Source: Candidatus Micrarchaeia archaeon (GTDB lineage Archaea > Micrarchaeota > Micrarchaeia > Micrarchaeales > CABMGC01). From it: a stretch of DNA of 12,288 nt. The DNA lies in NCBI GenBank assembly GCA_049966395.1, contig JBMFUT010000021.1, forward strand, positions 1 to 12,288, written 5' to 3'. The position numbers were made by a program, and so were the translations under genes. The notes under the pieces are model-generated. The model was not told the DNA's origin and made no database searches. It saw only the letters and a list, made by a program, of their open reading frames with translations. Below, one piece after another: positions 1-8,755 of this stretch (positions are counted from its first letter, which is position 1; each line of letters starts with the position of its first letter).

Positions 1-16
1 GCACTTTAACTCTCAT
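1..16 (-). CDS. Possible 5' end of a gene continuing off the window (MRVKV...)
   Basis: ATG at 16 on the minus strand, 43 bp after the acnX stop, open to the window edge. Only five codons are visible. Confidence 0.25.
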
Positions 17-59
17 GCCTCTTTATGCCTGCGGCTTTATTATTTGGTGCGTTACTGCT

Positions 60-1541
60 TCACTTTTCTATTATGCTGTTTATTATGCTCTCGGCAGTGT
101 CAAAGACGACGTTTTGCTTGCAGAACCTCGGCAAGTATTTTGCCGCCTTTCCGGAGTTTGTGGCGGTAGTCTTGAAGCCTATCTCCTCTATTGGCGAAAC
201 GACCATGCACGTGTCTGCGGCTATTGTGCCGCCGGCATCCTCTATAATCTTGGCGTAGCCGACGTTCTCCGCAAGGTCCTTGACAGCCCTCGATGTGGAT
301 ATCCAGAGCGTTACTCCCTTCCTTATTTTCTTGCCTTCCAGGAGGTGCGCTATTTCCTTTATCTCGTTGAGCGTTGCGTGGGGGCAGCCGAACGCGACAA
401 AGTCCAGATCTTCTGGTCTTCCTGTATTAAGCTTCTCCTTTGCGTCGTTCAGCTCATTTTTCGTTATCTCTACTCTCTCCTCTACTCCCTCAAGGCTTAT
501 CATCCTGTTCTTCGCTTCTGGCGTCACTCCTTCTATATGATATAAGTCTATAGATCCCGAAGCCGCTCCCGCTGCTCCAAGCACCTTGAACTCCTCTACA
601 GTAGGCATCCTCTTTATGCCAGTGATGTAAGGTATGCGGCCTTTCGCAATTTCGCCAATCCTGTAGCCAAGCAGGCCGAAGTCGACAGTGCCGTTGAGTT
701 CTGTATCGACTTTCACCATAATCTTAGGATTCCTGTTCTCCTGGAAGTGCAGGCCGTATCTTGGCCCGTATCCTGCAATCGCGTAAAGCAGAGTGCTGAG
801 CCCAGATTCCCTGTTGGTCCTTATGCCGAGCACGGAATTGACGTATGCTATGGCGGACGACTCCGAGAAAAAGGCGTCGGTGAAAGGAGGCGGCATTTCC
901 CCTACGAGATAAGGAGTGCACGTTATGGTGGGTATGGCGCCCATCTTCATGTATATTTGCAATATCTCTATCTGCTTAGCCGCGAAATCTTCTGATATGC
1001 CCTGCTTCCTCCAGTCCCTCATGTCCATGCCTGCGGGGTTTATGGTCACGTGGCTTGCCCTGAACTTGTACTTGCTTCCGAGGCGCCTTCTGAGCTCCAA
1101 TCCGGTGTCAGTTATGGTCTTGTACGACACTCCTGAAATCTGCACGTAGTCCGCGGGTATGAATTCGTCGGTGCCGAGGAGCTCGCCGGCCCTTGCGAGG
1201 AATTCTGCTATTTCTGGATCTATGCCAAGTCTTTCTATTCTGCTCCTGTCTACCGCTTTCTTCTTTGATCCATTTATCTCTATGTCTATCTTTCCCAGTA
1301 TTGCGCCCCACATCGTTATCGGGTCCGCCTTGTCTATTATGATCTTGCTCGGGCCGAAGCCGTTTGCTGCAAGGTTGACTATCCTATCTGAACCCACTGT
1401 TGATCCGGAAGCAGAAGGGAAATGCAGGATTTTCCCTGCAATGCTCTTTCCGTAGAGCTCGTGGCCCTTGTTTATCACGACGCCGTTCCTGTCCAAGTCG
1501 TCAAGCCACGATATCTGCTGCTTTGTTTCAAGTTCTTCCAT
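60..1541 (-). CDS. acnX: Aconitase X family protein, DUF126 (small/swivel subunit) fused to DUF521 (large subunit); probable phosphomevalonate dehydratase (PMDh)
   Basis: The N-terminal ~85 aa carry DUF126 motifs (HELYGKSIAGKILHFP, GSTVGS, GAI). The remainder carries DUF521 motifs (QISGVSYKTI, INPAGMD, TCTPY, ESSA, NSVLG.RTNRE, GCPH, DTCMVVSP, TNSGKAA.Y), including three Cys at the expected Fe-S ligand motifs. Start placed at ATG 1541; TTG 1553 is the alternative. It lies 15 bp downstream of the UbiD gene. Confidence 0.9.
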   Translation of the reverse strand: MEELETKQQISWLDDLDRNGVVINKGHELYGKSIAGKILHFPSASGSTVGSDRIVNLAANGFGPSKIIIDKADPITMWGAILGKIDIEINGSKKKAVDRSRIERLGIDPEIAEFLARAGELLGTDEFIPADYVQISGVSYKTITDTGLELRRRLGSKYKFRASHVTINPAGMDMRDWRKQGISEDFAAKQIEILQIYMKMGAIPTITCTPYLVGEMPPPFTDAFFSESSAIAYVNSVLGIRTNRESGLSTLLYAIAGYGPRYGLHFQENRNPKIMVKVDTELNGTVDFGLLGYRIGEIAKGRIPYITGIKRMPTVEEFKVLGAAGAASGSIDLYHIEGVTPEAKNRMISLEGVEERVEITKNELNDAKEKLNTGRPEDLDFVAFGCPHATLNEIKEIAHLLEGKKIRKGVTLWISTSRAVKDLAENVGYAKIIEDAGGTIAADTCMVVSPIEEIGFKTTATNSGKAAKYLPRFCKQNVVFDTAESIINSIIEK

Positions 1542-1556
1542 TTCACCAACCAAGCG

Positions 1557-2834
1557 TCACATGTCAACCTTTTTCATCTTGAGCTCCTTTTCCTTAGGCA
1601 CGTCGAGAGGCCTTGTGGCGTCTATGCAGAGCTTGCTCCCGGTGCCGTCAGGAGCGGCCATTGGGTCAAGGCTGGATCCCTTCACGTTGCGCATCACAAG
1701 CTCCTTGCCGGCATCCCAGTACATTGTCACTGCGTAATTGACTTCATTCGGGTTGGTAACGTCTATGTCTTCGTCTACTATTGTAATCTTCTTGAGGCTC
1801 TTGTGGCCCCTTATGGCTGCGTCTATCGCCTTCCTCGGGTCGTCTTCGCTTTTCTTCCCTATGGATATCGCGGCGTCGAGCCATCCGCTCCCGCCCTCTG
1901 TAAGGTAGACGCCCTTCACGTCTATGCCCTCGTTCTTCAGCGCCATGTATATTGTCGGAGTCCTCGGAGCGCCCATGAGAAGCTTGTGCTCGTTGCCTCC
2001 GGGAAGCAGCGCGTGATATATCGGATTTTTCTTCAATGCTATCCTGTCGACCGCAAAGACGGGCTGCTCCCTGACAATATCGTAGGTCTGCGTAAGATCG
2101 ACAAAAGGCCCTTCCTTTGCAACCTCGTCATGCAGTATTTTTGCCTCTATGACTATTTCAGAATCTGCGGGATACTCGCTGCTGTTTGTCCTCGCCTTTA
2201 CCACTTCGACTCCGTTTTCAAGCGCAGAGGCAATTCCAAGCTCGTAAAAGCCCCTCTCCACGCTCGTTGCCGCGGCTATCAGGACCCCGGAGCTGTTGCC
2301 TATGGATATCGAAACGTCAACGTCTTCGCCGTGTTCCTTTGCGTCCATGTACATAGTGTGCAAATCCCTCTTCTCCACAAGCCTGCCCACGAGCCTGTCG
2401 CTTCCAATCCTTGCGAGCCTGTGGAAGGAAATGTTTCTCGATCCGTTCCTGGCCGCGAAGACAACTCCAGAAGTTATGTAAGCGCCCATGTCATTCGGGT
2501 AGTGGGTCAATATGGGCAGCATGTTGAGGTCAGGTTCCGCGTATTCGAAATCGCCGCTAACGAAATTTATGCTTCCCGGCGAGCCTATTGCGGAGCTTAT
2601 CCTTTCTATCCATCCCTCTTTTGTCGTGCCAACACTCTTGCACAGGAGGTCCATCCTGCTTAGCATGTTGCCGAGCACCGGGATGCTGCTGCCCTTCACG
2701 TTCTCGAAGAGCATTGGCTTACCGTCGTTTTTCCTGAGGCGCGAAGGTATTTCGTATTTTGGGCTCAGCTCCTCGCTGACCCTGAGCAGGTCTCCGTCGC
2801 TTTCAAGCAAAGAAATAATATCTCTGAACTTCAT
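1557..2834 (-). CDS. ubiD: UbiD-family prFMN-dependent decarboxylase; probable trans-anhydromevalonate 5-phosphate decarboxylase
   Basis: UbiD motifs FENVKG, LPILTH, GAYITSG, RNISFHR, EGPFVDLTQTYD, IVDEDID, GSSLDP and SKLCIDAT. The EGPFVD variant and 425-aa length fit the archaeal AMPD-like clade as recalled. It is adjacent to acnX. Confidence 0.9.
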   Translation of the reverse strand: MKFRDIISLLESDGDLLRVSEELSPKYEIPSRLRKNDGKPMLFENVKGSSIPVLGNMLSRMDLLCKSVGTTKEGWIERISSAIGSPGSINFVSGDFEYAEPDLNMLPILTHYPNDMGAYITSGVVFAARNGSRNISFHRLARIGSDRLVGRLVEKRDLHTMYMDAKEHGEDVDVSISIGNSSGVLIAAATSVERGFYELGIASALENGVEVVKARTNSSEYPADSEIVIEAKILHDEVAKEGPFVDLTQTYDIVREQPVFAVDRIALKKNPIYHALLPGGNEHKLLMGAPRTPTIYMALKNEGIDVKGVYLTEGGSGWLDAAISIGKKSEDDPRKAIDAAIRGHKSLKKITIVDEDIDVTNPNEVNYAVTMYWDAGKELVMRNVKGSSLDPMAAPDGTGSKLCIDATRPLDVPKEKELKMKKVDM

Positions 2835-8042: not shown

Positions 8043-8119
8043 CAAGCGCACCTTAAGACTATCATTTATTATACAACTATTTAATAATTTTGTATGCAAT
8101 CTTTATGCGTGGTCGTAGC

Positions 8120-8755
8120 ATGAGAAGCGCAGATGCGGTAACGCTGCTTAGGGTGCCGCTGATATTGTTCCTGGCATACATGGTTTTCGTTAAATTCAGC
8201 GCTCTTGCCGACATAATACTAATGGCAATAATATTCGCAATGGACGCTCTCGACGGCTTCTATGCCGTAAAGGAAGCCGGCAAGGGATCAGTCAGCTTCT
8301 ACCAATATTTGAGCGCAGCCTTAGGCAATGCTGCCGCCAAGGCAAGGGTCTCTGCGCTTAAGAAAAAAATAAAGTCAATTGCGCCGTACGGCCCAAGGCT
8401 TGACGTAGCTGGGGACAGGGTAATAGAATACACTTTGTGGGTGCTGTTCACATACCTGCACATAGTGCCGTTGATAATACTGCTGCTGGTGGTAGTGAGG
8501 CATTCATTTGCCGACGCGCTAATGGGCGCAAGGGGGACCTCTTCGAAGATGAAGACAAAATTCGCATCTGTCATATATTCATCTAATTTGTGGCGGGGAG
8601 GCATAAACGTGGTAAAGTTCGTCACCTTTGCATACCTCGTCATGGTTTACGTTTCAGGCTATCCTATCGACATCGGATATATCCTGGTGGGAATACTTTT
8701 CACTTACATAATGCTGCGAGGCGCGGCTGAGATATACGAATCCCTGAAGGCATGA
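8120..8755 (+). CDS. CDP-alcohol phosphotransferase family membrane protein (phospholipid headgroup synthase-like)
   Basis: N-terminal AD.VTLLR (equivalent to PN.lT..R), split signature DALDG..A ... G..LD..GD, and multiple transmembrane segments. Start is ATG 8120 or 8105. Confidence 0.8.
   Translation: MRSADAVTLLRVPLILFLAYMVFVKFSALADIILMAIIFAMDALDGFYAVKEAGKGSVSFYQYLSAALGNAAAKARVSALKKKIKSIAPYGPRLDVAGDRVIEYTLWVLFTYLHIVPLIILLLVVVRHSFADALMGARGTSSKMKTKFASVIYSSNLWRGGINVVKFVTFAYLVMVYVSGYPIDIGYILVGILFTYIMLRGAAEIYESLKA

What the first reader, a model, noticed from the sequence alone, without database searches (positions are those of the whole stretch)
60..1541. Single-chain, trimmed aconitase X: probable fused phosphomevalonate dehydratase
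Seen: one uninterrupted ~493-aa ORF with DUF126 motifs followed by DUF521 motifs, with GSTVGS and the TCTPY, GCPH and DTC cysteines retained. Established: characterised archaeal PMDh (AcnX type II, e.g. Aeropyrum, Thermococcus, Methanosarcina) is a two-gene heterodimer, whereas the fused DUF126-DUF521 form (type I) is the bacterial/fungal cis-3-hydroxy-L-proline dehydratase. Inference: the large-subunit motifs (QISGVSYKTI, INPAGMD, DTCMVVSP) look like the archaeal type, so this would be an independent fusion. Compared with the family as recalled, the small domain seems to lack both the N-terminal G...G.A.G strand and the C-terminal ~30 aa, and the large subunit lacks its usual MYLT.EE start. 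This suggests a minimised one-gene PMDh of mechanistic and metabolic-engineering interest.
Basis: partly seen in the sequence, partly recalled or inferred. Interest (0 to 1): 0.75.

Follow-up and report, generated by a model that had tools for sequence, protein, structure and literature searches.

The report
One-gene, trimmed archaeal mevalonate dehydratase
This gene joins the two normally separate subunits of an archaeal lipid-precursor enzyme into one shortened chain found in over a hundred uncultured archaeal sequences, and it likely still works as phosphomevalonate dehydratase, which would give a simpler single-gene version of a step used in isoprenoid engineering.

Summary
Confirmed and extended. 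Window 60-1541(-) is one open 493-aa frame: a trimmed aconitase X small domain fused in front of an archaeal-type large domain, directly behind a UbiD-family (AMPD-like) gene. It is not an assembly artefact: 109 full-length homologues (query included) were aligned, 67 of them 492 aa. All keep the [4Fe-4S] cysteines, catalytic serine and most substrate contacts of Thermococcus AcnX and lack the type I hydroxyproline-dehydratase landmarks. Large-domain trees put the fusions in one clade among split archaeal enzymes; grouping with type I is rejected (p-AU 0.009-0.010; small domain alone p 0.29). Source labels span Micrarchaeota, Thermoplasmata, Aenigmatarchaeota, two Asgard groups and Methanodesulfokora. 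The small domain lost about 14 N- and 26 C-terminal residues (four strands), and the uncovered sheet face turned polar. Domain order is the reverse of the usual large-then-small gene order. Side finding: UbiX, which makes AMPD's cofactor, was found in 0 of 11 Micrarchaeota genomes with the fusion but 29 of 29 with the canonical split enzyme. Activity is untested. Seven paper searches found no description; the scan's notes held no earlier report.

The parts
60..1541 (-). Single-chain aconitase X (493 aa from ATG; alternative TTG start at 1553), likely phosphomevalonate dehydratase
   Evidence: AlphaFold2 model mean pLDDT 95.5, pTM 0.93
1275..1541 (-). Trimmed small (swivel, domain 4) part, residues 1-89, equal to residues ~15-104 of the 130-aa split subunit
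   Evidence: model 1..91 on AF0055 15..105, rmsd 1.6
1401..1403 (-). Ser47 codon in GSTVG, counterpart of the proposed catalytic base Ser62(S) of Thermococcus AcnX
   Evidence: 109 of 109; PMC8184944
1206..1274 (-). Remodelled junction, residues ~90-112: short tether plus two helices predicted to occupy the place of the large subunit's N-terminal helices
   Evidence: landmark spacing 56 residues in 107 of 108 scored homologues versus 82 for split subunits end to end
63..1205 (-). Large part (domains 1-2-3), residues 113-493, with Cys208 (918-920), Cys386 (384-386), Cys445 (207-209), Glu227, Lys465, Tyr469
1557..2834 (-). UbiD-family decarboxylase, 425 aa, likely anhydromevalonate phosphate decarboxylase (AMPD); ends 15 bases before the ATG of the fused gene
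   Evidence: (TIGR00148 323 bits, cut-off 245)

Best explanation
The gene encodes a single-chain aconitase X, with a shortened small domain fused ahead of an archaeal-type large domain, that likely acts as phosphomevalonate dehydratase in the archaeal mevalonate pathway. Shown here: one open frame, the domain anatomy, the conserved residues, the neighbouring UbiD gene and the tree position. Inferred from the Thermococcus and Aeropyrum enzymes: Cys208, Cys386 and Cys445 hold a [4Fe-4S] cluster whose free iron, with Glu227 and Lys465, activates the C3 hydroxyl of mevalonate 5-phosphate; Ser47 removes the C2 proton; the backbone of Gly137-Val138-Ser139 with Thr142 and Asn168 holds the phosphate; the product trans-anhydromevalonate phosphate is decarboxylated by the upstream AMPD to isopentenyl phosphate, then used by IPK, IDI, a prenyl diphosphate synthase and GGGP synthase, all found in this genome. 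Inferred about origin: one fusion event from split archaeal genes, separate from the bacterial type I fusion; it needed a gene rearrangement because split pairs are nearly always large-then-small; once tethered, the small domain lost its outer beta layer and the uncovered face became polar. The two-gene cassette (AMPD plus fusion) has probably moved between lineages, including from Micrarchaeota-like into Thermoplasmata-like genomes.
For: Residues (numbering from PMC8184944, reference pair L159 is 88-89% identical to the Thermococcus small subunit, and scores 766 bits on the large): G48, V49, S50, N79, C110, E129, S130, S131, C283, C342, K361, Y365 (large) and L27, S62, T63, V64 (small) are each kept in 109 of 109 fused proteins; position 47 is A/S/G (split archaeal: A114, S51, V1 of 166); position 53 is T in 109 of 109 (split: S84, N41, T40, V1). 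Six type I references have D, I, W, C and S/N at 47, 50, 27(S), 63(S), 283. Context: AMPD-like gene directly upstream in all 26 other fused loci that have upstream DNA (21 after removing 3 duplicates and the window, L225, 4; some may be the same organisms); L067 also carries IPK and mevalonate kinase. Own genome: mevalonate kinase, IPK beside a prenyl synthase, IDI-2, GGGP synthase family; only one GHMP-N match, so no second route via a GHMP decarboxylase was found. Trees: fused clade 100/100 inside a 95/98 group of split archaeal large subunits, 98 SH-aLRT under the mixture model; AU p 0.0099 and 0.0090 against joining type I. Structure: confident model that superposes over 486 residues on the monomeric type I enzyme (Z 44.8, rmsd 2.4) and 377 on the Thermococcus large subunit (Z 43.0, rmsd 1.9). 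Hydropathy of eight alternating strand positions falls from +2.8 to -1.8 while the other face rises from +1.5 to +3.3.
Against: No activity data. The fused small domain carries changes at positions near the catalytic loop that are near-invariant in split enzymes (Y67 134 of 134 to D 105 of 109; G28-G29 to D-D; K60 to S). The partner UbiD differs at positions conserved in 96 split-locus AMPDs (E292T, H320D, W367Y, T371M, R372Y in query numbering). UbiX was not found in any of 11 distinct Micrarchaeota genomes with the fusion; HMG-CoA reductase in only 5 of 10 such genomes searched and not in this one; archaeal HMG-CoA synthase over cut-off in 0 of 4; IDI-2 over cut-off in 2 of 5. The small-domain tree is unresolved and does not reject joining type I (p-AU 0.29), although identity is higher to split archaeal subunits (33-46% versus 27-35%). 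The two faces in the hydropathy test were assigned by alternation after seeing the alignment, not from coordinates. Methanosarcina and Aeropyrum enzymes were not identified among the tree rows.
Confidence: 0.85

Rival explanations
1. The fused dehydratase and its UbiD partner have drifted together to a changed reaction or cofactor use: a different hydroxy-acid phosphate substrate, or a decarboxylase that no longer depends on UbiX-made prenylated FMN.
For: Both genes form their own long-stemmed clades with similar branching; clade-specific changes at conserved positions in both; UbiX not found in 11 of 11 Micrarchaeota carriers including one single-contig 776,853-base genome, while GGGP synthase is found in all 13 Micrarchaeales handles tested; upper-pathway genes patchy.
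Against: All listed mevalonate-phosphate contacts are kept; the UbiD keeps the N-x-S-x-H-R and E-G-P-F-x-D motifs seen in split-locus AMPDs; UbiX is also missing in two same-family genomes with a split enzyme, so the loss follows the lineage, not the fusion; the four Thermoplasmata-class carriers have UbiX, though also a second UbiD that could explain it.
Confidence: 0.11
2. [quoted passage not shown]
For: Same 4-1-2-3 single-chain order; best whole-chain structural match is the Agrobacterium type I enzyme; small-domain tree does not reject it.
Against: Lacks W35, T72, D203, I206 and C510 equivalents and has the C283 equivalent; NF051439 score 272.5 against cut-off 700; AU tests reject it for the large domain; neighbour is AMPD-like, whereas two of the plasmid type I loci sit by hydroxyproline epimerase genes.
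Confidence: 0.02
3. The fusion is an assembly chimera or a decaying gene.
For: The window's genome is a 34-contig, 89% complete assembly; no independent reads span the junction.
Against: 109 full-length homologues from several sources at 47-87% identity with near-constant length and junction spacing; intact in GTDB genomes.
Confidence: 0.01

Closest known systems
AcnX type IIb, phosphomevalonate dehydratase (Thermococcus kodakarensis 7CNR/7CNS; Aeropyrum pernix Ape_2087.1/Ape_2089; Methanosarcina mazei MM_1525/MM_1524)
   Same: Three cluster cysteines, catalytic serine motif, carboxylate, hydroxyl and phosphate contacts; AMPD-like neighbour; large domain 41% identical in structure alignment, rmsd 1.9; tree position among split archaeal large subunits.
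   Different: One chain instead of two; small part lacks about residues 1-14 and 105-130 (strands 2-4, 6-9, part of 12-19, 116-120, 125-128 of the modelled split subunit); N-terminal MYLT.EE motif replaced; Asn53 is Thr; Y67, G28-G29, K60 changed in most members; domain order opposite to the usual gene order.
[quoted passage not shown]
   Same: Single chain, domain order 4-linker-1-2-3, same overall predicted packing (Z 44.8, rmsd 2.4 over 486 residues).
   Different: About 65-70 residues shorter than the 558-565-residue type I chains; 26% identity; different cysteine set and substrate landmarks; junction spacing 56 versus about 100 residues; separate origin in large-domain trees.
Untrimmed large-small read-through fusions of AcnX seen here (P0162, P0170, P0174, P0179, P0185, P0212, P0230; Rhodococcus plasmid locus L150)
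   Same: Also single-chain AcnX; four of them (P0162, P0170, P0174, P0179) have GSTVG, TCTPY and GCPH.
   Different: Opposite domain order, full-length small domain (541-598 aa), scattered over the tree rather than joined to this clade.

Membership tests
AcnX type IIb (PMDh) | Cluster ligands Cys110, Cys283, Cys342 and no type I site-C cysteine | tested here: met
   C208, C386, C445 in 109 of 109; DTCMVV in 107 of 109
AcnX type IIb (PMDh) | Catalytic Ser62(S) with Thr63, Val64, Leu27 | tested here: met
   109 of 109 each
AcnX type IIb (PMDh) | Phosphate and hydroxyl site: Ala47-Gly48-Val49-Ser50, Asn53, Asn79, Glu129-Ser130-Ser131, Lys361, Tyr365 | tested here: met
   All invariant except position 47 (Ser in the query, as in 51 of 166 split enzymes) and position 53 (Thr, as in 40 of 166)
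AcnX type IIb (PMDh) | Large domain groups with archaeal split enzymes | tested here: met
AcnX type IIb (PMDh) | Two genes, heterodimer of large and small subunits | tested here: not met
   One frame; hence filed as a variant that works like type IIb, not a standard member
AcnX type IIb (PMDh) | Pathway partners AMPD, mevalonate kinase, IPK in the genome | tested here: met
AcnX type IIb (PMDh) | UbiX prenyltransferase partner for AMPD in the genome | tested here: inconclusive
   Not found in this 89% complete genome or 10 other carriers; present in 4 of 4 Thermoplasmata-class carriers
AcnX type IIb (PMDh) | Dehydrates mevalonate 5-phosphate with a [4Fe-4S] cluster | not testable with these tools
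   needs assay and EPR
AcnX type I (C3LHyp dehydratase) | Single chain, order 4-1-2-3 | tested here: met
AcnX type I (C3LHyp dehydratase) | Cys-X-Cys at 508/510 and no cysteine at the 449 site | tested here: not met
   DTCMVV and GCPH in the query
AcnX type I (C3LHyp dehydratase) | Pyrrolidine-binding W35, T72, D203, I206 | tested here: not met
   L13, V49, S136, S139 in the query
AcnX type I (C3LHyp dehydratase) | NCBIfam NF051439 above cut-off; common origin with type I | tested here: not met
   272.5 versus 700 bits; AU p 0.0099 and 0.0090 for the large domain; small domain alone inconclusive, p 0.29
AcnX types IIc-IIf (bacterial, unknown function) | Absence of the landmark residues of both known activities | tested here: not met
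   Type IIb landmarks present; the paper's Supplementary Fig. 8 was not read

The most novel reading that the evidence does not exclude
A horizontally mobile two-gene cassette in uncultured archaea carries a miniaturised one-chain phosphomevalonate dehydratase whose swivel domain has shed a whole beta layer, paired with a co-diverged decarboxylase that, in host-dependent Micrarchaeota, runs without any UbiX: either it needs no prenylated FMN, gets it from an unrecognised enzyme, or takes the cofactor from the host cell.
Probability: 0.3. Interest if true: 0.8.

Novelty: new variant of a known kind. Interest (0 to 1): 0.55.

Why it matters
Published schemes split aconitase X into single-chain bacterial/fungal hydroxyproline dehydratases and two-subunit archaeal PMDh (PMC8184944, PMC10040528); this family breaks that rule and would be misread by architecture alone. 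It is a natural deletion experiment showing which part of the swivel domain can go. PMDh is the oxygen-sensitive, putatively rate-limiting step of the ATP-saving archaeal pathway in engineered E. coli (PMC12547664), so a panel of 100+ one-gene variants with fixed stoichiometry is directly screenable; nothing here shows better oxygen tolerance. The missing UbiX in Micrarchaeota carriers raises a testable question about cofactor supply in symbiotic archaea.

Tried and rejected
Reads: three runs listed, shares 0.10, 0.07, 0.00, no RNA holder listed; contigs of two of them gave only short pieces and none spanned the junction: uninformative. Search for an untrimmed small-large intermediate using residues 1-125 of basal P0116 returned only P0116 and P0120 among 292 candidates: weak, no evidence either way. 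The idea that lost small-subunit strands are supplied by the linker: no homology found and the model shows helices there. The idea that the two split loci with small-before-large order (L174, L175) are the fusion's ancestors: they do not group with it. The idea that the fusion is a circular permutation of a large-small read-through fusion: those fusions are not sisters of this clade, so no support. A draw of 301 genomes from the phylum of G067 and 4 from its class held no fused gene. UbiX could not be tested in the metagenome records L061-L071. Whether the fused enzyme binds AMPD was not tested; no complex prediction was obtained. Scan notes: one unrelated hit by sequence, none by words.

Full report
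Observation. The minus strand holds one stop-free frame from 1553 (TTG) or 1541 (ATG) to the stop at 60-62. Numbering below follows the 493-aa ATG form (P0003), which is the public gene call. Pfam finds the AcnX swivel domain followed by the AcnX large domain, both far above cut-off. A 425-aa UbiD-family gene ends 15 bases upstream on the same strand. The other window genes are housekeeping: VKOR-like, MiaB-like methylthiotransferase, a class I (I/L/M/V) tRNA ligase, a HemK-like methyltransferase, an ATP-dependent DNA ligase. The genome is 693,655 bases, 89% complete; loci from genomes of the same family carry Ca. Micrarchaeota/Micrarchaeia titles and one identical-looking protein cluster is labelled Micrarchaeaceae.

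Not an artefact. The protein search listed 120 best hits; I aligned the 109 full-length ones (query included) and left out 11 partial or short ones. Lengths are 483-540 aa, 67 of them 492, and the spacing between a small-domain landmark and a large-domain landmark is 56 residues in 107 of 108 scored. Seven complete fused loci came from GTDB Micrarchaeota and 13 fused loci from 80 metagenome loci. In a draw of 201 genomes of the window's phylum, 61 had AcnX over cut-off and 8 of those (the window's genome included) had the long frame and late profile start of the fusion (G461, G576, G554 confirmed). Four of 401 genomes from the class of a Methanomassiliicoccales-titled record carry it (that this class is Thermoplasmata is recalled, and agrees with NCBI labels). 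The 50%-representative search added four full-length, 41-42% identical members of 482-504 aa and one partial; they have the same trimmed small-then-large layout and join the clade at SH-aLRT 97. Source labels in their clusters are Helarchaeota, Wukongarchaeota and Methanodesulfokora; another member is labelled Aenigmatarchaeota. These are depositors' labels on metagenome bins.

Which type. PMC8184944 (parts 1-5 of 7 of the main text read; supplements not read) lists the Thermococcus residues that bind the cluster and mevalonate 5-phosphate and the Agrobacterium residues specific for hydroxyproline. Using L159 as the numbering reference, all three cysteines, Glu129, Ser130, Ser131, Lys361, Tyr365, Asn79, Gly48-Val49-Ser50 and small-subunit Leu27, Ser62, Thr63, Val64 are present in 109 of 109 fused proteins. 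The two deviations in the query, Ser for Ala47 and Thr for Asn53, occur in 51 and 40 of 166 split archaeal-type enzymes. Six type I references from bacterial plasmids have the alternative residues; the C-W-C motif was matched in 4 of the 6 by my pattern. The type I model NF051439 scores 272.5 against a cut-off of 700. PMC10040528 (passages) shows the Aeropyrum enzyme uses [4Fe-4S] and describes type II as two subunits.

Trees. Large domain, 99 rows chosen from 221 by redundancy filtering: fusions one clade (100), type I one clade (100). Forty rows, careful search (bootstrap not fully settled): fusions 100/100, inside a 95/98 group with split subunits from Micrarchaeota, Thermoplasmata and Bathyarchaeia; joining them to type I is rejected, p-AU 0.0099, and 0.0090 with 28 rows under the mixture model. 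With the deeper members added, support for that wider group fell to 84, so the exact sister is open. Small domain, 45 rows: fusions one clade on a long stem, position unresolved, joining type I not rejected (p 0.29); mean identity is higher to 157 split subunits (33-46%) than to 6 type I (27-35%) for all nine fused rows tested. The AMPD-like neighbours of fused genes are also one clade (11 of 48 rows, 100), with high-GC loci nested next to a Micrarchaeota locus as in the dehydratase tree, which suggests the pair travels together; direction of transfer was not formally tested.

Anatomy of the trimming. The AlphaFold2 model is confident throughout, junction included. It aligns 1..91 on AF0055 residues 15..105, 96..491 on the Thermococcus large subunit 1..386, and 1..493 on type I 23..558; Foldseek aligns 89 columns on the 131-residue Thermococcus small chain at rmsd 1.2. 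A model of the split small subunit (rmsd 0.6-0.8 to the crystal) shows that residues 1-14 and 105-130 contain four strands, part of a fifth and a short helix. Positions 17, 19, 53, 55, 81 and 103, mostly hydrophobic in 134 split subunits, are mostly E, R, V/T, H/Y, K/R and E in the fusions; mean hydropathy over eight alternating positions drops from +2.8 to -1.8 and over the other eight rises from +1.5 to +3.3. I read this as loss of the covering beta layer with resurfacing; faces were assigned by alternation after seeing the data, not from coordinates. Residues 90-112 show no sequence homology to either lost segment but are predicted to take the place of the large subunit's first helices.

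Origin. Among loci holding both split genes, order was large-then-small in 89 of 89 and 73 of 75 (duplicates not removed). The fusion is small-then-large, so simple stop-codon loss cannot explain it; duplication or rearrangement followed by deletion is my inference. Simple read-through (large-small, untrimmed) fusions exist separately: seven among the 18 representatives I examined of 150 listed, and one Rhodococcus plasmid locus.

Pathway context. The genome has mevalonate kinase, IPK next to a prenyl diphosphate synthase, IDI-2 and a GGGP synthase family gene. HMG-CoA reductase, archaeal HMG-CoA synthase and UbiX were not found (a UbiX HMM from 14 loci also found nothing in six frames). Across relatives, PF02441 was found in 29 of 29 Micrarchaeota genomes with a canonical split enzyme (29 chosen of 52 such genomes), in 0 of 13 handles with the fusion (11 distinct genomes; one has only a 3' fragment of the gene; one is a single 776,853-base contig) and in 0 of 2 same-family genomes with a divergent split enzyme. 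GGGP synthase was found in all 13 Micrarchaeales handles tested, so assembly gaps are an unlikely general cause, but these genomes are kin and the loss follows the lineage. The four Thermoplasmata-class carriers have UbiX and a second UbiD. PMC12547664 (passages) states that AMPD needs prenylated FMN. HMG-CoA reductase was found in 5 of 10 distinct fused genomes searched. PMC8975820 (passages) reports an incomplete, different mevalonate route and host dependence in Ca. Micrarchaeum harzensis. Uptake of mevalonate or cofactor from a host is therefore plausible but inferred.

Literature. Seven searches (listings and abstract starts seen) and passages of five papers gave no mention of a single-chain archaeal PMDh. 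PMC11052028 (passages) treats it as AcnX1 plus AcnX2 and has no occurrence of 'fused' or 'fusion' in its main text. The library lacks most subscription papers, including the original pathway papers, and supplements were not read; databases already label some members 'aconitase X' or 'predicted aconitase/predicted aconitase with swiveling domain'.

Verdict. Real, conserved and apparently undescribed: a new architectural variant of a known enzyme, likely with the known chemistry (0.85). Interest 0.55, raised by the clean miniaturisation, the wide and patchy spread, direct testability in existing E. coli strains and the missing UbiX; limited because the predicted reaction is already known.

Noticed in passing
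G000, G010, G016, G030, G036, G461, G576, G554, G062, G064, G021, G467, G013: AMPD-like UbiD gene but no detectable UbiX/PF02441 gene in these 13 Micrarchaeales genomes, against 29 of 29 other Micrarchaeota with split AcnX; AMPD adjacency was not seen for G021, whose contig starts inside the gene.
   Followed up: partly
window 1557-2834 (-): The UbiD beside fused genes has clade-wide changes at positions conserved in 96 split-locus AMPDs (R61M, E292T, H320D, E366N, W367Y, A370T, T371M, R372Y, S392M, T399G) while keeping the catalytic motifs.
   Followed up: partly
P0162, P0170, P0174, P0179, P0185, P0212, P0230; L150:958-2721: Separate, untrimmed large-small AcnX fusions; the cluster of P0170 includes a Promethearchaeota-labelled protein; several origins likely.
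   Followed up: partly
L011, L023, L034 (GTDB records titled Methylomirabilota, Acidiferrales, Gemmatimonadota): Bacterially titled bins with AMPD, large and small AcnX genes in a row and a mevalonate kinase over cut-off in the genome: either the archaeal pathway in bacteria or archaeal contigs in the bins.
   Followed up: no
L224 (G467) and L043 (G013): Same-family relatives, one in the same genus as two fused carriers, have a split AcnX and AMPD that group with Thermoproteota-phylum sequences, suggesting a separate acquisition.
   Followed up: partly
L174, L175: The only two split loci with small-before-large gene order among those examined.
   Followed up: partly
G576 (single contig, 776,853 bases): Has mevalonate kinase, AMPD-like gene, fused AcnX and GGGP synthase, but no HMG-CoA reductase, archaeal HMG-CoA synthase, IDI-2 over cut-off or UbiX was found.
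   Followed up: partly
window 8090-8755 (+): Membrane protein with a weak CDP-alcohol phosphatidyltransferase match (18 bits, cut-off 22), no NCBIfam hit; possibly a lipid head-group enzyme.
   Followed up: no
L223:1896-3431: Split large subunit frame of 512 aa, about 120 longer than usual, with a separate small subunit gene behind it.
   Followed up: no
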